A stretch of 32,881 bases of DNA from a virus (Duplodnaviria; Heunggongvirae; Uroviricota; Caudoviricetes): the IMG/VR virus record IMGVR_UViG_2579778650_000028. One strand, written 5' to 3'. The translations under genes were made by a program, and so were the position numbers. This document shows, piece by piece, positions 1 to 11,533 of the stretch (positions are counted from its first letter, which is position 1; the number at the start of each line of letters is the position of its first letter). Below the pieces are notes generated by a model. The model did not search any database. It had not been told where the DNA came from and worked only from the letters and a program-made list of their open reading frames with translations.

Positions 1-237
1 ATGATGTCTATAAATGAAGTTGTTAAACAGGACTGGCACCCCGCGCATGTTGTCGCGGCGGTGCATGTAAAAGGTTTTACTTTACGCTCTCTGTCCATTG
101 AAGCCGGTTTAAACCAGGATTCTTTAAAGAATGCCCTGTACCGCAAATGCCCAAAATATGAGCGCATTATTGCTGATGCTATTGGTGTTGCGCCGGAGGA
201 GATCTGGCCCAGCCGTTACGCTCGTAAGGTGGCATAA
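1..237 (+). CDS. ner: Ner-like DNA-binding transcriptional regulator (Ner/Nlp HTH family), 78 aa
   Basis: ORF begins at window base 1. Ner/Nlp-type signature (DWHPAHVVAAV...LRSLS...NALYRKCPK.ERIIADAIGV.PEEIWPSRY) and position directly upstream of the transposase gene. Sequence is not the Mu Ner as I recall it, so likely a D108-like or other immunity variant. Confidence 0.85.
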   Translation: MMSINEVVKQDWHPAHVVAAVHVKGFTLRSLSIEAGLNQDSLKNALYRKCPKYERIIADAIGVAPEEIWPSRYARKVA

Positions 238-239
238 AA

Positions 240-2333
240 ATGTTTGTGTCAGTTAATGAGCTTGTAGGGCTACCGGGTATGCCGGGAACTGCGCAAGGGG
301 TGCGGTATTCCATAAGGAAACTGGCCTCATCTGAGCATTTCAGGCGCAAACGTGCGGGTTCAAAAACCATTGAATACAGCATCGACTGCCTCCCTCCGGT
401 TACACAACGGGCGTTACGTGAGCGCCATGTAGCTCAACTGATGGCAACCGCCCCGCAGGAGATAACTACCCAGCCTCCTGTAAAGCGTGAACGCAAACAA
501 AATGTTGTACAGCCTGTTGAGGCATATCGCGGTTCGCCACAATTGGTAGAAGAGCGTCTGAATGCGCTTACGGAAAATCAACGTAAAGTTGCAGAAGCGC
601 GTATTGCTCTTGTCTGTGAAGTTCTACGAATTAGCCAGGAGCCGGGATTCAGTTGTGCCAGCGCTATACGTTTTATTGTGTCGCGGTTAGCGCAGGGTAA
701 CCTGGAAGAACGCCTGGAATCTTTGGTCATTACTGCTAATGCCCGTAAAGGGAAAGAGCGAACTCTGAGCGCAATTACGCTCAAACGTTGGATAGCTGCG
801 TTTAACAAAGCACAGAATGCCGCAGAACGATTGCTGTTACTGGCACCAGGAAAGCGCGACGAAATAAAACCGGAAGAAATTAGCTGGCTGCCTGAATTTC
901 TGGCGCAGTATCGTCAGGCTAACGGCAGGCCTATGTCAGAAGCATACGAGGATTTTGTCGCTGATTGGCAGCGTCGCCATGCGGACGAACCATACATGCT
1001 GGAGGTGATGCCTTCCTATGATGTTGTCCGGTATGCCATGAAAAAACTGCCGGAAGTGGTGAAACAAAAAGGGCGCGTTACCGGCAGTGAATACCGTCAG
1101 CTTGAAGGATTCACCCGCCGCGACTGGACAGCTATGCCGGTGAATTATGTCTGGATTGGTGACGGTCACGGTATGAAGCTGAAATGTGCGCATCCGGTTC
1201 ACGGGCGTCCATTTTCACCGGAAGTTACGTTTGTGATCGACGGTGGAACCCGGTTTGTGGTTGGCTGGAGTCTTGATCTTGCGGAGAACGTGTTCGCTGT
1301 TGCCGGGGCGATACAACACGGCATTCGCAATCACGGAAAACCATTCCTGTATTACTCGGATAATGGTTCCGGTGAAACGGCAGATATGCTGGATAAAGAG
1401 ATCGTCGGGATTCTGCCCCGCCTGGGGATTAACCACCCCACTGGTATTGCGGGAAATCCGCAGGGACGCGGCATTATTGAGCGCCTGAACCGGACGTTAC
1501 CGATGCGTATAGCAAGGAGGTATCGCACCTATTTCGGCAAGGGGGCTGACCGGGAATCGTTGCGAGTACTTAATCGTGATCTGCGTTCAGCGTTTAATGC
1601 CCTGCAACAGGACAAGCCACTGAGCGCCCGTCAGAAAGCCGCAATGCGCGAGCTGCCGTCTTGGTCAGAACTGATTGAGGCTATCCGTGAGGGGGTGGAG
1701 TGGTACAACAACCGCCCACATTCTGAATTGCCGATGAAACCAAACGGAAAACATTACAGCCCGGCAGAGTTCAGAAAAAAACGCTTAGCGGAAGAAGACA
1801 CTGAAATTGAGTGGCTGAGTGATATTGAGCTGCGTGACATGTTCCGCCCGATGGTGGAGCGTCCGGTAAGACGCTGCGAAATCCAGTGGCTGAACAATAT
1901 TTACTACGCGCCAGAGCTACGTGATGAACATGGTCGCAAGGTACTTATCAGCTATGACATTCACGATGCCGAGCGAATTACGGTACGCCGTAAGGACGGT
2001 AGCTTTATCTGTGAGGCGATATGGAACGGCAATAAACGCGCAGCCTTTCCTGTTACGGCTGAATATCACAAACAACAGCAACGTATTAAAGGAATGCGCA
2101 AGCGTGCTGAGGAAAAAATACGTGATGCTGAGGATGAAGGTATTCAGGTTATTGAACAAAAAACGATAGAACCCTGGCTGGATAATGTTTATCGCCCTGT
2201 TGGTAATGTGGTGACCGTTCAGCCGTTGAGGTGTGAGGAAGAGCATGATGATGAATACGAAACTGAGCGTGATGAATATCTGAATCATTCGCTGGATATT
2301 CTGGAACAGAACAGACGTAAAAAAGCCATTTAA
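240..2333 (+). CDS. A: Mu-type DDE transposase MuA, 697 aa
   Basis: Long ORF after ner with RBS-like AAGGTGG upstream. C-terminus ...DDEYETERDEYLNHSLDILEQNRRKKAI matches my recollection of the Mu A C-terminal tail (MuB/ClpX interaction). N-terminal DNA-binding region diverges from Mu. Confidence 0.95.
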   Translation: MFVSVNELVGLPGMPGTAQGVRYSIRKLASSEHFRRKRAGSKTIEYSIDCLPPVTQRALRERHVAQLMATAPQEITTQPPVKRERKQNVVQPVEAYRGSPQLVEERLNALTENQRKVAEARIALVCEVLRISQEPGFSCASAIRFIVSRLAQGNLEERLESLVITANARKGKERTLSAITLKRWIAAFNKAQNAAERLLLLAPGKRDEIKPEEISWLPEFLAQYRQANGRPMSEAYEDFVADWQRRHADEPYMLEVMPSYDVVRYAMKKLPEVVKQKGRVTGSEYRQLEGFTRRDWTAMPVNYVWIGDGHGMKLKCAHPVHGRPFSPEVTFVIDGGTRFVVGWSLDLAENVFAVAGAIQHGIRNHGKPFLYYSDNGSGETADMLDKEIVGILPRLGINHPTGIAGNPQGRGIIERLNRTLPMRIARRYRTYFGKGADRESLRVLNRDLRSAFNALQQDKPLSARQKAAMRELPSWSELIEAIREGVEWYNNRPHSELPMKPNGKHYSPAEFRKKRLAEEDTEIEWLSDIELRDMFRPMVERPVRRCEIQWLNNIYYAPELRDEHGRKVLISYDIHDAERITVRRKDGSFICEAIWNGNKRAAFPVTAEYHKQQQRIKGMRKRAEEKIRDAEDEGIQVIEQKTIEPWLDNVYRPVGNVVTVQPLRCEEEHDDEYETERDEYLNHSLDILEQNRRKKAI

Positions 2334-3797: not shown

Positions 3798-4067
3798 ATG
3801 GCAAAAGTTATCTTTGAGTTTACATGGCTGGAAAGTAGTGACGGTTGCAATGGGCGCAGAGAAGTTCTGGATGCAAAAGCATGTCTTGCAGATATCTCGC
3901 CAACGGAAAATATCGGGCCTCATGATTTACTGGCAAATATCGTCCTGACTATGGCTCCTGAAATTATTAAAAAGGCCAAAGATGAGATGCTGACCACTAT
4001 GAAGAAAGTGGGTATGGAAGCTGAATGTGATTTAGTACCACATCCGGTGAATGCGGTTAAACATTAA
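3798..4067 (+). CDS. hypothetical early protein, 89 aa
   Basis: Strong RBS TAAGGAGA upstream of ATG; co-oriented and tightly packed in the early operon. Confidence 0.55.
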   Translation: MAKVIFEFTWLESSDGCNGRREVLDAKACLADISPTENIGPHDLLANIVLTMAPEIIKKAKDEMLTTMKKVGMEAECDLVPHPVNAVKH

Positions 4068-4087
4068 TTCGCAAAGGAACGCTGACA

Positions 4088-6510: not shown

Positions 6511-6679
6511 AACATCGTATTCGTGGCTGGGGAAATTTACCACGGTGAAACAGGAATGCCCGACCTGCGGTAATGAATCCCCTGAATATCTGAAAGAGTG
6601 CCCTCATTGTGGCGGGCAGAAATGTAACCACTGCGATATGGGCGATGACACGGCGTGCATGAATTGTGAAGGTGAGTGA
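6497..6679 (+). CDS. small double zinc-ribbon protein, 60 aa
   Basis: Four CxxC pairs (CPTCG, CPHCG, CNHC, CMNC); GGAGG RBS upstream. Confidence 0.5.
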   Translation: MENNETSYSWLGKFTTVKQECPTCGNESPEYLKECPHCGGQKCNHCDMGDDTACMNCEGE

Positions 6680-6680
6680 C

Positions 6681-6989
6681 ATGAATAATGGTGTATTTTC
6701 AAAATCAGAAGAGCTTGCCGCCCTGCTGATTGCCGGTGGTTTGCCGAAAAAAGAAGTGCATGACTTTGTGAATTTTGTATATGAGCCGTCTCATGAAAAA
6801 GCTATTGATGAGGTCATGGCGTACCGGTTTGGCATTATTGCTGAGTCACTGAGTCCTCACTGGATTATTGAAAATCTCCGCGCTATTGCTGATGGCAACG
6901 ATAAATCAGCAGCCGTTGCTGCACTGGATGTGTTACGGCAAATGAGTCTGAAATTTTATCCTGAATTTATTCTGAGGGCCGCAAAATGA
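6681..6989 (+). CDS. hypothetical early protein, about 102 aa
   Basis: ATG at 6681 directly after the upstream stop, with GAAGGTGAG upstream. Track ORF starts at GTG 6666. Confidence 0.5.
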   Translation: MNNGVFSKSEELAALLIAGGLPKKEVHDFVNFVYEPSHEKAIDEVMAYRFGIIAESLSPHWIIENLRAIADGNDKSAAVAALDVLRQMSLKFYPEFILRAAK

Positions 6990-7288
6990 ACAATGAAGAT
7001 AAATTTACTCCCCTTAATATTGATAACGTCATGGCTGAAAAAGGGATGCTGGAACGTGTTCGCGCTATCGTTGAATATGGTATTAAGCATAATCTCACCG
7101 CCAGAGAAGTCCGTGACATTATCAACCGCGAAATGAATCGTCTGGAAACAGTAGTGGCACTGCAAAATGAAACAGCCCGCGAGGAGTACATCCGCCGCAG
7201 GCTGGGGTTATCAGACCAGGATATTGTTACTGACGCTCATGTGTTTGAGGCTTTTGAGATCCGTCAGCATCTGGGTCTAACGAACTGA
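6986..7288 (+). CDS. hypothetical early protein, 100 aa
   Basis: Start overlaps the upstream stop (ATGA); co-oriented with the early operon. Confidence 0.5.
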   Translation: MNNEDKFTPLNIDNVMAEKGMLERVRAIVEYGIKHNLTAREVRDIINREMNRLETVVALQNETAREEYIRRRLGLSDQDIVTDAHVFEAFEIRQHLGLTN

Positions 7289-7493
7289 TAATGTCTTCCA
7301 TGATCTTTGACAGTTGCATGTTTTCGCGGCGGCTTGTTCTTATTGCAGGCGCATCTTTTAAAATCTCTGCTGAAGAGCTGAAAATGGCCTGGCCCTCTTC
7401 TGCGGTGATGATCGCCTTCTTCACCAGAAGGCGCACCAGTGCTGATGCAATCGCATAACCTGCAACATCATAAGGTTGTACATTATTTTCCAT
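7227..7493 (-). CDS. hypothetical 88-aa protein encoded antisense to the early operon
   Basis: Minus-strand ORF with a good Shine-Dalgarno (AGAGAGGA) about 5 nt upstream of its ATG. It covers 7289..7493, where no plus-strand ORF of 60 aa or more exists, and overlaps the 3' end of the 6986..7288 gene by 62 nt. Confidence 0.4.
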   Translation of the reverse strand: MENNVQPYDVAGYAIASALVRLLVKKAIITAEEGQAIFSSSAEILKDAPAIRTSRRENMQLSKIMEDIISSLDPDADGSQKPQTHERQ

Positions 7494-7562: not shown

Positions 7563-8114
7563 ATGAATCGCACATCCCTGATTAAATTAATCCATGTCGC
7601 CCGTCGGGAGCTACAACTCGACGACGACACTTACCGCGCTTTTCTGATGCAGAAAACGGGCAAAATCAGTTGCCGCGAGCTGACGGTTACGCAACTGGAA
7701 CAGGTGCTCGATGCCATGAAAGAACGCGGCTTTAAGAAGCTGAATAAACATCCACGTCGCCGCTTTAAGGGGCATGTCACGCCCCGCGAGAAGGTATACA
7801 AAGTCTGGCAGCAGATGGCAGAAGACGGTTTTATTACCGATGGCGGTGATGTGGCGCTGGATAAATATGTTCAGCGCCTGACGGCGAAACGTAATGGCGG
7901 ACAGGGTGTTTCCACGCTGGCGTGGTGTCATGGCGACACCCTGTTGATTGTTCTCGAAACTCTCAAGCAGTGGCATATCCGCTGTATTCGTGAAGCCTTT
8001 TCCCGTCACGGGCTTCCGTTGCCAGTCAGTCCGTCCGGGCGTGAACTGCGCGGCTATGATGCCATGACGGCGGCTTATGCCCGTGCCAGAAAGACACGGA
8101 GGATGGCACAATGA
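7563..8114 (+). CDS. gemA: GemA-like early regulatory protein (Mu gp16 family), 183 aa
   Basis: Position immediately upstream of mor, with stop/start overlap; length and N-terminus (MNRTSLIKLIHVARRELQLDDDTYRAFL) consistent with GemA as recalled; GGAGG RBS. Confidence 0.75.
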   Translation: MNRTSLIKLIHVARRELQLDDDTYRAFLMQKTGKISCRELTVTQLEQVLDAMKERGFKKLNKHPRRRFKGHVTPREKVYKVWQQMAEDGFITDGGDVALDKYVQRLTAKRNGGQGVSTLAWCHGDTLLIVLETLKQWHIRCIREAFSRHGLPLPVSPSGRELRGYDAMTAAYARARKTRRMAQ

Positions 8115-8500
8115 CGGAAGATTTATTTGGTGATTTGCAGGATGACACCATCCTGGCACATCTTGACAATCCCGCAGAGGATACGTCACGCTTTCCGGCA
8201 CTGCTGGCGGAGCTGAACGATTTACTGCGCGGGGAATTGTCCCGGTTAGGTGTTGACCCGGCCCATTCACTGGAGATTGTTGTGGCTATCTGTAAGCATC
8301 TGGGCGGCGGTCAGGTCTACATTCCACGCGGTCAGGTTCTGGATTCGCTTATTCGGGATTTGCGTATCTGGAATGATTTCAACGGTCGCAATGTTCACGA
8401 ACTGGCAATCCGTCATGGTGTGACATTTAACACAGTCTATAAAGCCATCCGACGAATGCGGCGTATAAAGTATCGTCAGTGTTCCCCCCCTTTGTTTTAA
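8111..8500 (+). CDS. mor: Mor, middle operon regulator (Mor/C family activator), 129 aa
   Basis: 129 aa with a C-terminal HTH; clearly paralogous to the C protein at 9479 (shared LxxxxGGxQxYIPxG...FNGRN motif); located after gemA. Confidence 0.85.
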   Translation: MTEDLFGDLQDDTILAHLDNPAEDTSRFPALLAELNDLLRGELSRLGVDPAHSLEIVVAICKHLGGGQVYIPRGQVLDSLIRDLRIWNDFNGRNVHELAIRHGVTFNTVYKAIRRMRRIKYRQCSPPLF

Positions 8501-8506
8501 ACAGTA

Positions 8507-8530
8507 AAGCCGGTTAATCCGGCTTTTTTT
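8507..8530 (+). terminator. rho-independent terminator after mor
   Basis: Hairpin AAGCCGG-TTAAT-CCGGCTT followed by a 7-T run. Confidence 0.7.
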
Positions 8531-8582
8531 ACGCCCTCAATATTCTGTTGTGACGATAAAACGTTCATGACAGGAGGGCAAC
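8531..8582 (+). promoter_or_regulatory. candidate Mor-dependent middle promoter (Pm) region
   Basis: Only intergenic DNA between the mor terminator and the next operon; Mu places Pm downstream of mor. No motif verified. Confidence 0.3.
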
Positions 8583-9143
8583 ATGCCTGAGTTTTCCCCT
8601 GCATTCCTTCATTCGCTGAATTTCGTTATACGCCCTGATGTTGAAGGTGGCTATGTTAATGATCCTGCCGACCGTGGCGGCGAAACGAAATACGGTATTT
8701 CTGACCGTCGCGACGGCGTTATTGATGGCAAAACCGATGTTAACGGTGACGGAAAACCTGATACCCGCATTAAGGATTTAACCCGCGAGCAGGCGGCGCA
8801 GATCTACTGGCGTGATTACTGGCTGGCGGCAAAGTGTAACGAATGGCCTGATGGCGTTTCCTTATTCGTTTTTGATGCTGCCGTTCAGCACGGTGTTAAA
8901 CGCGCGATTCAGATCCTCCAGGCGGCAGCAGGTGTTGATGATGATGGCATCGTCGGTAAAAACACACGCGCAGCCGTTCTGCGTGCCGATACTGACTGGC
9001 TGCTGTTGCAGTGCTTCCTGCGTCGTTCCCGCTATTACGCAGGGATTATCAAATCCAGTGCCTCGCAGGGGAAATATCTGAATGGCTGGTTTAACCGTCT
9101 GGATCTGCTCGCCAGCGCCTGTCGGGAGGTTCTGCATGGGTAA
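8583..9143 (+). CDS. GH108-family muramidase-like protein with C-terminal peptidoglycan-binding domain, 186 aa
   Basis: N-terminal EGGYVNDPADRGGETKYGI motif typical of glycoside hydrolase family 108, and DDGIVGKNTRAAV typical of the PG_binding_3 domain; strong AGGAGG RBS. Confidence 0.75.
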   Translation: MPEFSPAFLHSLNFVIRPDVEGGYVNDPADRGGETKYGISDRRDGVIDGKTDVNGDGKPDTRIKDLTREQAAQIYWRDYWLAAKCNEWPDGVSLFVFDAAVQHGVKRAIQILQAAAGVDDDGIVGKNTRAAVLRADTDWLLLQCFLRRSRYYAGIIKSSASQGKYLNGWFNRLDLLASACREVLHG

Positions 9144-9366
9144 AGGGTGGGATGCGTCCTTTCAGTTCGGCAGGCGTGAACGTTTACGACAGGAGGTATT
9201 ACATCGGGAGGCCGGAGGCCCACCACCAAAGCCAATGGATTACACAGGGCACGATGGCACCCACGGCAGTTATTACATGAAAGGCTGGCAGTCAGTTGAT
9301 ATGCCGGAAATTCTTCACCACTGTCAACGTTATAAGGAAAAATATTGTGTACAGAAAATTCAGTGA
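9136..9366 (+). CDS. hypothetical small protein, about 77 aa, overlapping the muramidase gene end
   Basis: ATG at 9136 overlaps the upstream stop by 8 nt, with GGGAGG 7 nt upstream. Confidence 0.4.
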   Translation: MGKGWDASFQFGRRERLRQEVLHREAGGPPPKPMDYTGHDGTHGSYYMKGWQSVDMPEILHHCQRYKEKYCVQKIQ

Positions 9367-9466
9367 TGAATGTTTCGGGCCGTCCACGCTGATTAATGCG
9401 ATAAAAGTGATTGCCCTTGTGGTTCTGATAACCATCAGTGCCGTGGTGTATCTTTTTGTCTGTTAA
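9347..9466 (+). CDS. candidate 39-aa micro-protein with C-terminal transmembrane helix
   Basis: GTG start with AAGGA 8 nt upstream; hydrophobic stretch VIALVVLITISAVVYLFV; ends 12 nt before the C gene start. Confidence 0.3.
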   Translation: MYRKFSDECFGPSTLINAIKVIALVVLITISAVVYLFVC

Positions 9467-9478
9467 CCGGGGGAAAAT

Positions 9479-9901
9479 ATGCAGCATGATTTATTTGAAC
9501 ACGATCCGGCAATTCGCCAGTTAATCGGACATATTGATAACATCCCGGCCCCGGAACTGGAATCACGCTGGCCCCGTTCGGTGGTTGATCTGATTGATGT
9601 TCTGGAAAACGAACTGAAACGCCAGAACGTCAGCAATCCCCGTGAACTTGCCCGTAAACAGGCCGTTGCCCTGTCCTGTTTTCTGGGTGGACGGCAGTTT
9701 TACATCCCCTGCGGCGATACGATCCTGACCGCGTTACGCGACGATTTGCTTTACTGCCAGTTTAATGGTCGTAACATGGAAGAACTGCGTCGCCAGTACC
9801 GCCTGTCCCAGCCGCAGATCTACCAGATTATTGCCCGCCAGAGAAAGCTGCATACACGACGTCATCAGCCTGATCTGTTCTCACCTGAAAGCCCAAAATA
9901 A
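9479..9901 (+). CDS. C: C, late transcription activator (Mor/C family), 140 aa
   Basis: 140 aa; paralogous to Mor; sits directly upstream of the lysis genes as in Mu. Confidence 0.85.
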   Translation: MQHDLFEHDPAIRQLIGHIDNIPAPELESRWPRSVVDLIDVLENELKRQNVSNPRELARKQAVALSCFLGGRQFYIPCGDTILTALRDDLLYCQFNGRNMEELRRQYRLSQPQIYQIIARQRKLHTRRHQPDLFSPESPK

Positions 9902-9992
9902 CCGGCATCCTGCCGGTTATTTCCTGTCACCATAATCCCGCACCTGCCACCTGATTTTTTAGACTGCCATCAGAGCATTTTTTCAGGGAAGC
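9902..9992 (+). promoter_or_regulatory. C-lys intergenic region: terminator-like hairpin (9902..9916) and candidate C-dependent late promoter Plys
   Basis: Hairpin CCGGCA-TCC-TGCCGG right after the C stop. Downstream contains TTAT...ATAA, reminiscent of C-binding dyads at Mu late promoters, though spacing does not match the mom site as I recall it. Confidence 0.35.
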
Positions 9993-10511
9993 ATGATGGC
10001 GGGGATACCAAAAAAACTGAAAGCCACACTGCTGGCTGTAACGATTGCCGGTGGCGGTGTGGGTGGTTATCAGGAAATGACCCGTCAGTCTCTGATCCAC
10101 CTGGAAAATATCGCTTATATGCCTTACCGCGATATTGGCGGTGTGCTTTCGGTCTGTGTGGGGCATACCGGGCCGGATATCGAAATGCGCCGTTACAGCC
10201 ATGCGGAGTGTATGGCTCTCCTCGACAGTGATTTAAAACCGGTTTATGCGGCAATCGATCGTCTTGTCAGGGTGCCGCTGACGCCATATCAGAAAACGGC
10301 GCTGGCAACGTTTATTTTCAACACCGGTGTTACCGCATTCAGTAAATCAACGCTGCTGAAAAAACTCAATGCCGGTGATTACGCCGGAGCGCGTGACCAG
10401 ATGGCCCGCTGGGTGTTTGCCGCAGGCCATAAATGGAAAGGACTGATGAACCGTCGCGAAGTGGAAATGGCTATCTGGAATATCAGGGGGGCGGATGACC
10501 TTCGCCAGTAA
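9993..10511 (+). CDS. lys: SAR endolysin (lambda R / T4 lysozyme-like muramidase with signal-anchor-release domain), 172 aa
   Basis: N-terminal weakly hydrophobic Gly-rich SAR segment KKLKATLLAVTIAGGGVGG, then a lysozyme-like domain; position after C. Confidence 0.9.
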   Translation: MMAGIPKKLKATLLAVTIAGGGVGGYQEMTRQSLIHLENIAYMPYRDIGGVLSVCVGHTGPDIEMRRYSHAECMALLDSDLKPVYAAIDRLVRVPLTPYQKTALATFIFNTGVTAFSKSTLLKKLNAGDYAGARDQMARWVFAAGHKWKGLMNRREVEMAIWNIRGADDLRQ

Positions 10512-10881
10512 AAGTTTACTGCTGGCAGCCGTGTTTGCCGCCGTTTTGTCCGGGGTGTTGTGGCACAGGCTGGACAGCACCCGCCACGATAACCAGACGC
10601 TGCGCCGTGAATTACAGACGGAGCAACAGGCCCGCAACACGGCTGAATGGTTGTTACACGGTCAGGAACAGACGATGCAGGTATTTTCCGCTATCCGTGC
10701 CGCAAATCGTGCCGCGCGGCTGGCAGACGAGACAGAACATCATGATGCAAAACAAAAAATTACAACCGCCATTACCGGTGACAATTGCAGCACTCGTCCT
10801 GTGCCTGCCGTTGCTGCTGACAGGTTGCGGGAACTCGAAAAACGCACCCGTGCCATCGGTGGTGATCCTGCCCGAAACTGA
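10495..10881 (+). CDS. inner-membrane spanin (Rz-like), 128 aa
   Basis: N-terminal TM helix (LLLAAVFAAVLSGVLW) followed by a charged, likely coiled-coil periplasmic region; overlaps the lys 3' end. Confidence 0.6.
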   Translation: MTFASKSLLLAAVFAAVLSGVLWHRLDSTRHDNQTLRRELQTEQQARNTAEWLLHGQEQTMQVFSAIRAANRAARLADETEHHDAKQKITTAITGDNCSTRPVPAVAADRLRELEKRTRAIGGDPARN

Positions 10882-11083: not shown

Positions 11084-11234
11084 ACTCTGGCAGGGGGATA
11101 CCCGTGATATTCCCCGCCCGGCGGCGTATGACCCGCCTGTATTGTGTCCCGGTTGCGGTCGTGAGCTGCGGCCTGATGTGCTGAGACAGCAGCCGATGGC
11201 GAACTACTGCCACTGGTGCCGTGGAGCAGAATAA
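11040..11234 (+). CDS. small zinc-ribbon protein, 64 aa
   Basis: CPGCG...CHWC motifs; co-oriented; overlaps neighbours at both ends. Confidence 0.4.
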   Translation: MNEDQNRAVALLLAELWQGDTRDIPRPAAYDPPVLCPGCGRELRPDVLRQQPMANYCHWCRGAE

Positions 11235-11533
11235 TGGATTTGATTTCAGTTTTAGCGTTATGGCCTTACCTGTTGCCTGTTGTGGCCGGTGGGGCCGTCT
11301 GGGCAATGCGTCGTAGTTTTGCCAGCACTGAGCGTGTGGAGCGTCTTGAAAACCGGATGACCGAAATGGAAACCCGCTACGCCAGCATCCCTGGCACAGA
11401 AGATGTACACGAAATGCGCCTGCGAATTGCAGAGCTGTCCGGCGATATCCGGGTGCTGTCCCAGCGGGTGCAGTCATTTTCCCATCAACTGGAGCTGCTG
11501 CTTGAAAACGCAGTAAACCGGAGTAATTCATGA
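11234..11533 (+). CDS. releasin-like membrane protein (Mu gp25 position), about 99 aa
   Basis: ATG at 11234 overlaps the upstream stop; N-terminal TM segment (LISVLALWPYLLPVVAGGAVWA) then a coiled-coil-like region. Track ORF starts at GTG 11216. Confidence 0.55.
   Translation: MDLISVLALWPYLLPVVAGGAVWAMRRSFASTERVERLENRMTEMETRYASIPGTEDVHEMRLRIAELSGDIRVLSQRVQSFSHQLELLLENAVNRSNS

What the first reader, a model, noticed from the sequence alone, without database searches (positions are those of the whole stretch)
8583..9143. GH108-type muramidase with PG-binding domain encoded in the middle operon, in addition to the late SAR endolysin
The phage carries two peptidoglycan hydrolases of different families. 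The GH108 one sits between mor and C behind the mor terminator, so it is probably co-transcribed with C before late genes. GH108 enzymes of this architecture include specialised secretion muramidases (TtsA-type). Its role here is unclear. It may be conserved in Mu itself (gp18-gp20 region); I cannot confirm that from memory.
Basis: partly seen in the sequence, partly recalled or inferred. Interest (0 to 1): 0.45.

Follow-up and report, generated by a model that had tools for sequence, protein, structure and literature searches.

The report
Extra GH108 endolysin in Mu-type phage
A Mu-type phage carries, as first gene of its middle operon, an intact second cell-wall-cutting enzyme that phage Mu lacks; in many simpler Mu-like phages the same gene is the only lysis enzyme, which suggests that Mu's poorly understood middle operon is what remains of an older lysis cassette.

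Summary
ORF 8583-9143 (+), 186 aa, has Glyco_hydro_108 (E 9e-25) and PG_binding_3 (E 7e-14) domains and sits between mor and C. A GH24 SAR endolysin follows at 9993-10511.

Mu, D108 and SfMu lack the gene; there a 25-nt leader joins Pm to gp18.

The Mor-binding dyad of Pm is identical to Mu's (8503-8518). The inferred start, about 8554, lies 29 nt before the ATG, so the gene probably opens the middle transcript.

The protein has no signal or SAR segment. It resembles TtsA only weakly (E 7e-4).

In about 60 related loci with a single Mor-family activator, the order is Pm-like element, GH108, gp18, gp19-like, holin-like protein, TraR, DUF2730. One complete E. coli prophage of this type has no other annotated murein hydrolase.

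Best reading: this is the family's ancestral soluble endolysin, kept by a minority of Mu-type phages after the holin-like gene was replaced by gp20-C-SAR lysozyme-spanins. It is under strong purifying selection (dN/dS 0.02-0.05).

How it reaches the murein without a holin is unknown. I infer an accessory role once the membrane fails. It is a new variant of a known kind, of moderate interest.

The parts
8111..8500 (+). mor, the middle-operon activator (129 aa)
   Evidence: Pfam Mor E 1.4e-29. It is 92% identical to Mu Mor by tblastn.
8503..8518 (+). Mor-binding dyad of the middle promoter Pm (AGTAAAGCCGGTTAAT), equivalent to -51..-36 in Mu
   Evidence: It is identical to Mu 9173-9188 in alignment A1. 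The dyad position -51..-36, centred at -43.5, comes from PMC4287176 and PMC4390567. Mapping onto the sequence is my inference from those numbers and from the Pm feature 9163-9233 annotated in AF083977.
8506..8533 (+). Hairpin (AAAGCCGG-TTAAT-CCGGCTTT) followed by a T-run: the mor/early terminator, which overlaps Pm
   Evidence: RNA fold -12.2 kcal/mol, z -3.4, 0 of 200 shuffles as stable. The same element is annotated as a terminator in Mu.
8541..8546 (+). Probable Pm -10 hexamer TATTCT (Mu has TATCCT). The inferred transcription start is about 8554.
   Evidence: Alignment A1. Position inferred from the published dyad coordinates. Not measured.
8572..8578 (+). Shine-Dalgarno AGGAGGG, 4 nt before the ATG
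   Evidence: Read directly from the sequence.
8583..9143 (+). GH108 muramidase gene (186 aa). GH108 domain at aa 20-104, PG_binding_3 at aa 107-173, EGGY motif with E21 at nt 8643-8654. No signal or SAR segment.
   Evidence: dN/dS is 0.02-0.05 among phages that also carry the SAR lysozyme.
8709..8750 (+). Insertion of about 14 aa in the GH108 domain, containing DVNGDG (a DxNxDG, calcium-loop-like motif). It is specific to the enterobacterial clade.
   Evidence: Absent from the Vibrio and Shewanella orthologues and from the PDB homologues. D48, G49, D52, G55 and D56 are invariant in 31 homologues. Motif found. Low pLDDT over part of this region. A calcium-binding role is untested.
9136..9366 (+). 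gp18-like gene (76 aa, soluble, pI 9). Its ATG overlaps the GH108 stop (ATGGGTAA).
   Evidence: 83% identical to Mu gp18 in the protein alignment. phrog_2121 E 4.3e-38. In 76 of the 79 classified GH108-anchored loci, tblastn finds gp18 as the next gene after GH108. It is homologous to the ORF after the endolysin in Vibrio phages (BLASTP E 5e-12).
9347..9466 (+). gp20-like gene (39 aa, one transmembrane segment, GTG start). Mu's gp19 (4 transmembrane segments) is absent here, as in SfMu.
9479..9901 (+). C, the late-gene activator and last gene of the middle operon
   Evidence: Pfam Mor E 9.4e-34. 99% identical to Mu C.
9993..10511 (+). SAR endolysin (GH24, Mu gp22 homologue), first late gene
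   Evidence: Pfam Phage_lysozyme E 3.8e-36. 98% identical to Mu gp22. It carries T52S (Mu numbering) in the E-X8-D-X5-T triad.
11216..11533 (+). gp25, the DUF2730 'releasin'. It is the only lysis-timing component known in Mu and a possible partner.
   Evidence: 99% identical to Mu gp25. Function in Mu from PMC9239132.

Best explanation
The gene encodes a soluble, cytoplasmic N-acetylmuramidase of family GH108 with a C-terminal PG_binding_3 domain. It belongs to the endolysin lineage of Mu-like transposable phages.

In relatives with a single Mor-family activator, a Pm-like, Mor-type promoter drives one cassette: GH108, gp18, a 4-TM gp19-like protein, a GTA-holin-like protein of about 200 aa, TraR, DUF2730, then the packaging genes. 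In the Mu lineage the holin-like gene appears to have been replaced by gp20, C, a SAR lysozyme and the spanins. That replacement cut off the front of the cassette, and this front is what is now called the middle operon.

Most Mu-type phages, Mu, D108 and SfMu included, then lost GH108. The phage in this window (99% identical to Yersinia phages vB_YpM_5 and vB_YpM_6), five E. coli prophages and the SE11-type prophages kept it.

Here the gene is the first cistron of the Mor-dependent Pm transcript (inferred start about 8554, strong Shine-Dalgarno, stop overlapping the gp18 start). It should therefore be made from the middle phase onward, together with C.

It has no export signal and the phage has no recognisable holin. 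It most likely accumulates harmlessly in the cytoplasm and reaches the murein only when the inner membrane gives way after gp25-dependent release of the SAR endolysin. It would then act as a second muramidase, of a different family and with a binding domain, that completes or speeds destruction of the sacculus.

Shown: the domains, motif and fold; absence from Mu; promoter conservation; synteny; purifying selection. Inferred: transcription from Pm; enzymatic activity; the route to the periplasm; the accessory-lysis role; and loss rather than gain as the direction of change.
For: Identity. Pfam GH108 and PG_binding_3 are well above their cut-offs and phrog_315 'endolysin' scores 1.4e-51. The EGGY glutamate E21 is invariant in 31 homologues and aligns with residue 17, the Glu of the EGGY motif, in SagA 7dnp. 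The predicted fold matches SagA and NMB1012.

Soluble protein. The highest 19-residue hydropathy is 0.93 and is internal; there is no N-terminal hydrophobic segment.

Promoter. The Mor dyad is 16/16 identical to Mu's, the hairpin and -10 are kept, and homology with Mu ends at about +1. The scan reported no terminator-like site between the end of GH108 and the start of C; the only + strand sites lie inside coding sequence (GH108 and C) and are 5-bp stems.

Lineage and synteny. Among 88 gp18-anchored loci, 61 are Mor-GH108-gp18-(gp19b)-hol202-TraR(-DUF2730) with no C, SAR lysozyme or Rz. Ten are Mu-type with GH108 and 13 are Mu-type without it. In 76 of the 79 classified GH108-anchored loci gp18 is the next gene detected after GH108. 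The Pm-like dyad and hairpin lie 53-86 nt upstream of GH108 in 73 of 77 single-activator and 6 of 7 Mu-type distinct upstream regions (examples).

Sole lysin in relatives. A complete single-activator E. coli prophage (c to mom) is annotated with one Mor and with GH108 as its only murein hydrolase. Chamblee et al. list GH108+PF09374 as the endolysin of Vibrio Mu-like phages.

All combinations exist. One viral contig carries Mu's full gene set plus GH108 (L030).

Selection. There are 8 distinct alleles in phages that also carry C and the lysozyme. All are intact at 186 aa, and comparisons with dS of 0.1-0.2 give dN/dS of 0.02-0.05 (for example 23 synonymous against 2 non-synonymous differences).

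No recent donor. The closest protein outside the Mu-type cluster among 5.8 billion is about 74-75% identical. That is similar to the divergence of the flanking Mor (59-64%) and gp18 (70-73%).

Mu has no holin, and gp19 and gp20 are not holins (PMC9239132).
Against: No expression or activity data exist for this gene. Timing and function are inferred from sequence.

A cytoplasmic lysin with no holin has no demonstrated route to its substrate, so the benefit that explains the strong purifying selection is not identified.

Loss rather than gain rests only on distribution and synteny. The apparent 'deletion scar' in Mu's 24-nt leader was no better than shuffled sequence. All four combinations of GH108 and gp19 presence occur, so recombination among Mu-type phages has moved these genes around.

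The holin assignment of the ~200-aa protein is below Pfam's threshold (best E 5e-4).

The catalytic-loop region of the model has low confidence (pLDDT below 50 at residues 23-33).
Confidence: 0.6

Rival explanations
1. Holin-independent primary or co-primary endolysin. GH108 is actively delivered to the periplasm by phage membrane proteins that are not canonical holins (the DUF2730 protein gp25, gp20, or gp18 with a host factor). It would then help initiate lysis, not merely finish it.
For: Purifying selection is strong even though a working SAR endolysin is present. DUF2730 proteins are paired with soluble endolysins in many Mu-like phages (PMC9239132), and gp25 is present here. SE11-type prophages keep GH108, while their GH24 homologue has Ala at the catalytic-Glu position and a truncated C-terminus, and they have no spanin genes. 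In those, GH108 may be the only active lysin in a two-activator layout.
Against: In Mu, gp19, gp20 and gp25 show no holin-like lethality or triggering. No mechanism is known for exporting a folded 21-kDa protein without a holin. SE11-type elements may simply be defective prophages.
Confidence: 0.15
2. Functionally redundant leftover. The gene is carried passively at the head of the middle operon and contributes nothing measurable.
For: Most Mu-type phages, the well-studied Mu included, do without it. Only 5 of 41 E. coli genomes with a Mu-type C-lys segment carry it. It has no export route.
Against: dN/dS is 0.02-0.05 at dS of 0.1-0.2, with no frameshift or stop in 8 alleles. A neutral gene would accumulate non-synonymous and disruptive changes at that divergence. 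The gene also keeps a strong Shine-Dalgarno and its overlap with the gp18 start.
Confidence: 0.12
3. Specialised, non-lytic murein-remodelling enzyme of the TtsA or SagA kind. It would open the wall locally for secretion or for assembly of an envelope-spanning machine.
For: It has the same two-domain architecture. The best fold match is Brucella SagA, described as a type IV secretion-associated autolysin (the SagA role is from my own knowledge). Expression precedes the late genes.
Against: TtsA and Sen1395 are the weakest solved-structure matches (E 6.7e-4 and 7.5e-6; 20-24% identity). There is no toxin or secretion gene nearby. Expression depends on Mor, so it occurs only in cells committed to lysis. 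No independent sigma-70-like promoter was found upstream. Orthologues occupy the endolysin slot of related phages.
Confidence: 0.05
4. Recent horizontal insertion (a moron) into a Mu-like backbone, not an ancestral gene that was retained. This concerns origin only; the function would be as in the best explanation.
For: The indel relative to Mu and SfMu is clean and starts at about +1 of Pm. The 3' end of mor and the 5' half of gp18 are also more divergent from Mu (79% nt over 9135-9350), as expected for a recombination patch. All four GH108/gp19 combinations exist.
Against: No close donor exists outside the Mu-type cluster (at most about 75% aa identity among 5.8 billion proteins). The GH108-gp18 adjacency and the Pm-like element upstream are shared with distant relatives. 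Any transfer would therefore be homologous exchange within the family, replacing like with like, and not a foreign insertion.
Confidence: 0.08

Closest known systems
GH108 + PG_binding_3 endolysins of Mu-like phages with a single Mor-family activator (e.g. Vibrio phage 1.028.O AUR82803, listed as the endolysin in Chamblee et al. 2022 Table S1; Shewanella phage MuM16-2 p20; Klebsiella phage Kp4866-3; E. coli PSS-15 prophage WP_186266288)
   Same: They share the two domains and the soluble, signal-less form. They occupy the same position directly after mor and a Mor-type promoter, and the gp18 homologue follows each one. Identity is 42-75%.
   Different: In those phages it is the only annotated murein hydrolase, it is followed by a holin-like protein, and there is no C. 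Here it coexists with a SAR GH24 endolysin, spanins and the releasin. The holin-like gene is absent, and the gene sits upstream of C in what is by definition the middle operon.
Phage Mu middle operon (Pm-gp18-gp19-gp20-C) and the Mu lysis system (SAR endolysin gp22, releasin gp25, spanins gp23/23.1)
   Same: Pm, gp18, gp20, C, gp22, Rz and gp25 are all present at 83-100% identity and in the same order.
   Different: Mu has no GH108 gene; a 25-nt leader joins Pm to gp18. The window also lacks gp19.
Solved GH108 proteins: N. meningitidis NMB1012 (2ikb), Brucella abortus SagA (7dnp), Salmonella Typhi TtsA (6v40)
   Same: They share the fold and the EGGY catalytic motif.
   Different: Identity is 20-31%. 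The window protein has an extra 14-residue DVNGDG-containing loop. TtsA and SagA act in secretion contexts, whereas this gene sits in a phage lytic operon.
Phages reported with two lysin genes (e.g. coliphage swi2, Salmonella phage S10; titles and abstracts only)
   Same: More than one murein hydrolase is encoded by one phage.
   Different: Those reports concern lysins in late lysis modules of unrelated siphophages. Here the second lysin is in an earlier temporal class and there is no holin.

Membership tests
Glycoside hydrolase family 108 (Pfam PF05838) with PG_binding_3 (PF09374) | GH108 catalytic domain scoring above the curated threshold | tested here: met
   87.4 bits against a cut-off of 21.2, E 9.3e-25, aa 20-104.
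Glycoside hydrolase family 108 (Pfam PF05838) with PG_binding_3 (PF09374) | C-terminal PG_binding_3 domain | tested here: met
   52.3 bits against a cut-off of 24.6, E 6.8e-14, aa 107-173.
Glycoside hydrolase family 108 (Pfam PF05838) with PG_binding_3 (PF09374) | Conserved EGGY motif with the catalytic glutamate (the catalytic role is from my own knowledge of the family) | tested here: met
   E21-G-G-Y24 is present. E21 and Y24 are invariant in 31 homologues and align with the EGGY of NMB1012 and SagA.
Glycoside hydrolase family 108 (Pfam PF05838) with PG_binding_3 (PF09374) | Fold of solved family members | tested here: met
   AF2 model with pLDDT 83.7 and pTM 0.84. Foldseek gives 7dnp at E 1.6e-6 with TM 0.73-0.77, and 2ikb/2is5 at TM 0.6-0.75. 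The catalytic loop at residues 23-33 has low confidence.
Glycoside hydrolase family 108 (Pfam PF05838) with PG_binding_3 (PF09374) | N-acetylmuramidase activity on peptidoglycan | not testable with these tools
   Needs purified protein and sacculi.
Phage endolysin (functional class) | Orthologues serve as the lysis enzyme of related phages | tested here: met
   It is the only annotated murein hydrolase in the complete single-activator E. coli prophage. It is listed as the endolysin of Vibrio Mu-like phages in PMC9239132 Table S1. Both are annotation-level evidence, not experiments.
Phage endolysin (functional class) | Encoded with a holin or carrying its own export signal, and expressed late | tested here: not met
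   No signal or SAR segment. No holin-like gene in the window's lysis region, and Mu has none. The gene lies behind the middle promoter, not a late one.
Phage endolysin (functional class) | Required for, or contributing to, host lysis | not testable with these tools
   Needs a deletion or catalytic mutant.
TtsA-type secretion-associated muramidase | Close sequence relationship to TtsA/Sen1395 | tested here: not met
   E 6.7e-4 (6v40) and 7.5e-6 (6v3z), covering only part of the protein; 20-24% identity in the fold alignment.
TtsA-type secretion-associated muramidase | Encoded in a toxin or secretion islet and used without cell lysis | tested here: not met
   The neighbours are mor, gp18, gp20, C, SAR lysozyme and spanins. 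Expression is expected to depend on Mor.
TtsA-type secretion-associated muramidase | Specificity of the C-terminal domain for LD-crosslinked peptidoglycan (from my own knowledge of the TtsA literature) | not testable with these tools
   Biochemical.
SAR endolysin | Weakly hydrophobic N-terminal signal-anchor-release segment | tested here: not met
   The N-terminus MPEFSPAFLHSLNFVIRPDVEGG is not hydrophobic. The maximum KD(19) of 0.93 is internal.
Mu middle operon (Pm-driven genes) | Mor-binding dyad at -51..-36 and a -10 hexamer upstream | tested here: met
   The 16/16 identical dyad is at 8503-8518. The hexamer is TATTCT against Mu's TATCCT. Published positions come; I inferred the hexamer assignment.
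Mu middle operon (Pm-driven genes) | Mor-dependent transcription continuing into C | not testable with these tools
   Only a pattern scan was possible. It found no terminator-like site between the end of GH108 and the start of C; the + strand sites lie inside the GH108 and C coding sequences.

The most novel reading that the evidence does not exclude
Some Mu-type phages use a soluble endolysin without any holin. On this reading GH108 is made from the middle promoter and reaches the murein through a route that depends on the DUF2730 'releasin', the gp18 partner or the small membrane protein gp20. That would extend releasin function from SAR endolysins to fully cytoplasmic ones. Mu's unexplained middle-operon genes gp18-gp20 would then be working or vestigial parts of this alternative lysis pathway.
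Probability: 0.15. Interest if true: 0.7.

Novelty: new variant of a known kind. Interest (0 to 1): 0.4.

Why it matters
Mu is the only well-studied tailed phage shown to lyse without a holin, and the genes between Pm and C (gp18, gp19, gp20) have had no assigned role for decades.

The comparison made here places them. In dozens of relatives with a single Mor-family activator, the same promoter element drives a cassette of GH108 endolysin, gp18, a gp19-like membrane protein, a holin-like protein, TraR and DUF2730.

This suggests how Mu's three-tier transcription and holin-less lysis arose. A block carrying the second activator C, a SAR lysozyme and spanins replaced the holin-like gene and split an older lysis/late operon.

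The phage in this window, and isolates such as vB_YpM_5 and vB_YpM_6, are natural intermediates that still carry the old soluble endolysin. That makes the questions testable by simple genetics:
- Does the old enzyme still contribute to lysis?
- Can a releasin serve a cytoplasmic endolysin?
- What do gp18 to gp20 do?

In practical terms the gene is mis-annotated as 'hypothetical protein' in the Yersinia phage records.

Tried and rejected
1. Deletion scar in Mu. I thought Mu's 24-nt Pm-gp18 leader might be a fusion of the 5' leader and the 3' end of GH108, which would prove loss. The alignment scores were no better than shuffled sequence (1031/2000 and 1804/2000 shuffles reached them). Dropped. 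The direction of change now rests on distribution only.

2. A degenerate SAR lysozyme in GH108 carriers. The window's lysozyme has T52S in the catalytic triad, but other GH108-positive genomes have Thr. There is no consistent link. Only the SE11-type has a clearly damaged GH24 gene.

3. A natural experiment in the Yersinia phage paper, comparing vB_YpM_5/6 (with GH108) to vB_YpM_3/23 (without). No latent-period or burst-size data are reported, and the gene is not mentioned.

4. The TtsA-type reading was rejected on sequence distance and gene context.

5. An independent sigma-70 promoter or an internal terminator around the gene. The pattern scan found nothing convincing, and it also missed the known mor hairpin, so its sensitivity is limited. 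The hairpin was confirmed by folding.

6. Pfam assignment of the ~200-aa protein in single-activator phages. Only sub-threshold GTA_holin_3TM matches were found, in 10 of 15 members with a best E of 5e-4. It is described as holin-like and not as a holin.

7. Homology of Mu gp19 with the gp19-like protein of single-activator phages. Pairwise search found nothing. The profile comparison gave 81% probability and E 1.2e-5. This is suggestive, but membrane proteins can match spuriously.
Full report
**1. The observation**

The ORF at 8583-9143 (+) is real. It is 186 aa with an ATG start. A strong Shine-Dalgarno sequence, AGGAGGG, lies at 8572-8578.

- Pfam assigns Glyco_hydro_108 to aa 20-104 (E 9.3e-25) and PG_binding_3 to aa 107-173 (E 6.8e-14). 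Both are far above the curated cut-offs.
- PHROGs places it in phrog_315 'endolysin' (E 1.4e-51).
- Upstream are gemA (7563-8114) and mor (8111-8500).
- Downstream are a gp18-like gene (9136-9366), a gp20-like gene (9347-9466), C (9479-9901), a GH24 SAR endolysin (9993-10511) and Rz (10495-10881).

**2. The enzyme**

- The protein aligns with solved GH108 proteins: NMB1012 (E 1.4e-20), Brucella SagA (2.1e-17), and much more weakly Sen1395 (7.5e-6) and TtsA (6.7e-4).
- The EGGY motif is present at residues 21-24. E21 and Y24 are invariant in an alignment of 31 homologues.
- An AlphaFold2 model (mean pLDDT 83.7, pTM 0.84) matches SagA at TM 0.73-0.77 and NMB1012 at 0.6-0.75. TtsA ranks lower. 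Residues 23-33, next to the motif, are modelled with low confidence.
- There is no N-terminal hydrophobic segment, so no signal peptide or SAR domain. The protein should stay in the cytoplasm unless something lets it out.
- A 14-residue insertion containing DVNGDG, a calcium-loop-like motif, is present in the enterobacterial clade. It is absent from the Vibrio and Shewanella orthologues and from the solved structures.

**3. Comparison with Mu**

The window is 99.2% identical over 8000-10600 to Yersinia phages vB_YpM_5 and vB_YpM_6, which annotate the gene as hypothetical.

Mu, D108, SfMu, vB_YpM_3, vB_YpM_23 and others cover only 76-77% of that stretch. tblastn with the protein finds nothing in them at E <= 1e-5.

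The three-way alignment shows a clean indel of about 560 bp. Sequence is conserved through the mor terminator/Pm element up to window position 8552, and again from the gp18 start. In Mu and SfMu only 25 nt lie between these points.

Mu instead has gp19, a 4-TM protein, which the window and SfMu lack.

**4. Promoter**

Published work places the Mor-binding dyad of Pm at -51 to -36, centred at -43.5. Pm has a -10 hexamer and no -35 (PMC4390567 and PMC4287176).

I mapped these positions onto the Pm feature annotated in AF083977 (9163-9233):

| Element | Mu | Window |
|---|---|---|
| Mor dyad AGTAAAGCCGGTTAAT | 9173-9188 | 8503-8518, identical |
| Probable -10 hexamer | TATCCT | TATTCT, 8541-8546 |
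| Transcription start (+1) | 9224 | about 8554 |

The overlapping hairpin folds at -12.2 kcal/mol (z -3.4). Homology with Mu stops almost exactly at +1, and the GH108 ATG is at about +30.

The pattern scan found no terminator-like site between the end of GH108 and the start of C. The only + strand candidates are 5-bp stems inside the GH108 and C coding sequences.

The GH108 stop overlaps the gp18 start (ATGGGTAA).

The gene is therefore most likely the first cistron of the Mor-dependent middle transcript that ends with C. This is an inference from sequence; no transcript data exist.

**5. Where the gene comes from**

*Single-activator relatives.* Other Mu-like phages carry an orthologue directly after mor.
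- Klebsiella phage Kp4866-3: 72% identity.
- A group of Vibrio phages and Shewanella phage MuM16-2: about 43% identity.
- In these, and in an E. coli prophage in strain PSS-15, the order is GemA, Mor, GH108, gp18-like, gp19-like 4-TM protein, a protein of about 200 aa, TraR-type zinc finger, DUF2730, gp26, and small and large terminase. There is no C, no GH24 lysozyme and no Rz.
- The PSS-15 prophage is complete from repressor to mom. It has one Mor-family gene, and GH108 is its only annotated murein hydrolase.
- Chamblee et al. list the Vibrio GH108+PF09374 protein as those phages' endolysin. For the Yersinia Mu-type phages they list only the PF00959 lysozyme.

*Counts.* I collected 167 further loci from genome and viral contig collections and classified them by tblastn with 17 reference proteins.
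- Of 88 loci anchored on gp18, 61 have the single-activator layout with GH108. Ten are Mu-type (C plus lysozyme) with GH108, and 13 are Mu-type without it.
- Four Vibrio/Shewanella loci have a DUF5675 protein in place of GH108.
- In 76 of the 79 classified GH108-anchored loci, gp18 is the next gene detected after GH108.
- gp18 homology between the window and the Vibrio phages is significant (BLASTP E 5e-12; 15 invariant columns).

*Promoter element.* The Pm-like dyad and hairpin (…AGCCGG-N5-CCGGCTTTTTTT) lie 53-86 nt upstream of GH108 in 73 of 77 distinct single-activator upstream regions and 6 of 7 Mu-type ones. In Kp4866-3 the element stays next to GH108 even though another ORF separates it from mor.

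*The holin-like protein.* The ~200-aa protein gives consistent but sub-threshold matches to GTA_holin_3TM (10 of 15 members, best E 5e-4). The phrog_2121 profile covers gp18 at positions 3-75 and this protein at positions 89-281, which implies that fused forms exist.

*gp19.* Mu gp19 and the gp19-like protein match at profile level (81% probability, E 1.2e-5).

**6. Evolutionary reading (inferred)**

The single-activator layout is the widespread one, shared by distant Vibrio and Shewanella relatives, so it is probably ancestral.

In the Mu lineage the holin-like gene was replaced by gp20, C, the SAR lysozyme and the spanins. The front of the old cassette (GH108-gp18-gp19) was left behind Pm and is now called the middle operon.

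All combinations of the two variable genes exist:

| Example | GH108 | gp19 |
|---|---|---|
| Viral contig L030 | present | present |
| This window | present | absent |
| Mu | absent | present |
| SfMu | absent | absent |

Losses, exchanges among Mu-type phages, or both have therefore occurred.

No close donor exists outside the Mu-type cluster. The best outside match among 5.8 billion proteins is about 74-75% identical, similar to the divergence of Mor (59-64%) and gp18 (70-73%) between the two layouts. This argues against a recent foreign insertion.

A supposed deletion scar in Mu's leader was not significant.

**7. Is the gene still in use?**

Among phages that also carry C and the lysozyme there are 8 distinct alleles, all intact at 186 aa. 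At dS of 0.1-0.2 the dN/dS ratio is 0.02-0.05. For example, the window against the SE11 prophage shows 23 synonymous and 2 non-synonymous differences. This is strong purifying selection and argues against a decaying relic.

The gene is nevertheless a minority trait. Of the 5426 complete E. coli genomes, 41 have a Mu-type C-lys segment at 95% identity or more, and 5 of those carry GH108. Three further carriers are SE11-type.

**8. How it probably works**

Mu has no holin. gp19 and gp20 are not holins, and lysis depends on gp25-assisted release of the SAR endolysin followed by the spanins (PMC9239132).

The window has all of these at 97-100% identity, apart from gp19, and no holin-like gene.

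A soluble GH108 made from the middle phase would accumulate harmlessly in the cytoplasm. I infer that it reaches the sacculus only when the inner membrane fails after the SAR lysozyme acts. It would then serve as a second muramidase that carries a binding domain.

The alternative, that a non-holin route such as DUF2730, gp18 or gp20 delivers it, cannot be excluded. DUF2730 proteins are paired with soluble endolysins in many Mu-like phages. SE11-type prophages keep GH108 while their GH24 homologue has Ala at the catalytic-Glu position, a truncated C-terminus and no spanins. Chamblee et al. showed that an E37A change inactivates Mu gp22.

**9. Comparison with what is known, and verdict**

GH108 endolysins in Mu-like phages are already catalogued, and phages with two lysins have been reported.

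I did not find any description of the following in the searched literature: a Muvirus that carries the soluble GH108 enzyme in the middle operon alongside the SAR lysozyme and releasin system; or the inference that Mu's Pm and gp18-gp20 derive from the head of an older lysis cassette.

I rate the finding a new variant of a known kind, with moderate interest (0.4).

Noticed in passing
window 9136-9366; L005 4516-4779; L014 5001-5276; L008 5066-5293: gp18, of unknown function in Mu, is a conserved member of the lysis cassette in Mu-like phages. It follows the endolysin whether that is GH108 or a DUF5675 protein. The phrog_2121 profile spans gp18 (positions 3-75) and the ~200-aa holin-like protein (positions 89-281), so fused gp18-holin-like proteins must exist.
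   Followed up: partly
L007 5291-5719 (E. coli SE11 prophage); also L027, L028: The SE11-type Mu-like prophage has GH108-gp18-gp19'-gp20'-C'. Its GH24 'lysozyme' is only 142 aa, has Ala where Mu gp22 has the catalytic E37, and has a divergent C-terminus. No Rz/Rz1 or gp24 genes follow. GH108 may be its only active lysin, or the element may be defective.
   Followed up: partly
window 9993-10511 (residue 53 of the ORF, T52 in Mu numbering): The SAR endolysin of this phage, of vB_YpM_5 and of a few viral contigs has Ser instead of Thr at the third position of the E-X8-D-X5-T catalytic triad. Other GH108-carrying phages have Thr, so there is no consistent link to GH108.
   Followed up: partly
window 8709-8750 (aa 43-56 of the GH108 protein): There is a 14-residue insertion with a DVNGDG motif, like an EF-hand, dockerin or DxDxDG calcium loop, inside the catalytic domain. 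Its Asp and Gly residues are invariant across 31 enterobacterial homologues. It is absent from the Vibrio and Shewanella orthologues and from solved GH108 structures.
   Followed up: partly
L027 / L103, upstream of GH108 (about 100 nt before the ATG): In this viral contig the Pm element is partly duplicated in tandem: two copies of the …CCGGCTTTTTTTACGCCCTCAAT segment, the second preceded by the GCCGGTTAAT half-site, and the first dyad interrupted.
   Followed up: no
window 7227-7493 (-): An 88-aa ORF lies on the opposite strand between the E15-like gene and gemA. It is annotated in SfMu and vB_YpM_5. The SE11 prophage has a DUF2513 gene on the minus strand at the same place, and Mu has a plus-strand ORF (Mu_54) and the semi-early promoter there. 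This looks like a variable slot.
   Followed up: no
window 1-2240, 3817-4073, 6690-6983: These are other mosaic differences from Mu. The left 2.2 kb has no nucleotide match to Mu's left end at E 1e-10. A segment of about 250 nt replaces Mu E6. About 290 nt carrying a 107-aa ORF (6666-6989) is present as in SfMu but not in Mu.
   Followed up: no
L176 (E. coli PSS-15 prophage, NZ_AP027709 about 496.4-530.4 kb): This is a complete Mu-like prophage inserted in a FUSC-family gene next to aaeA. It has com and mom but only one Mor-family activator and no C, so one activator must serve all post-early promoters, mom's included, in this lineage.
   Followed up: no
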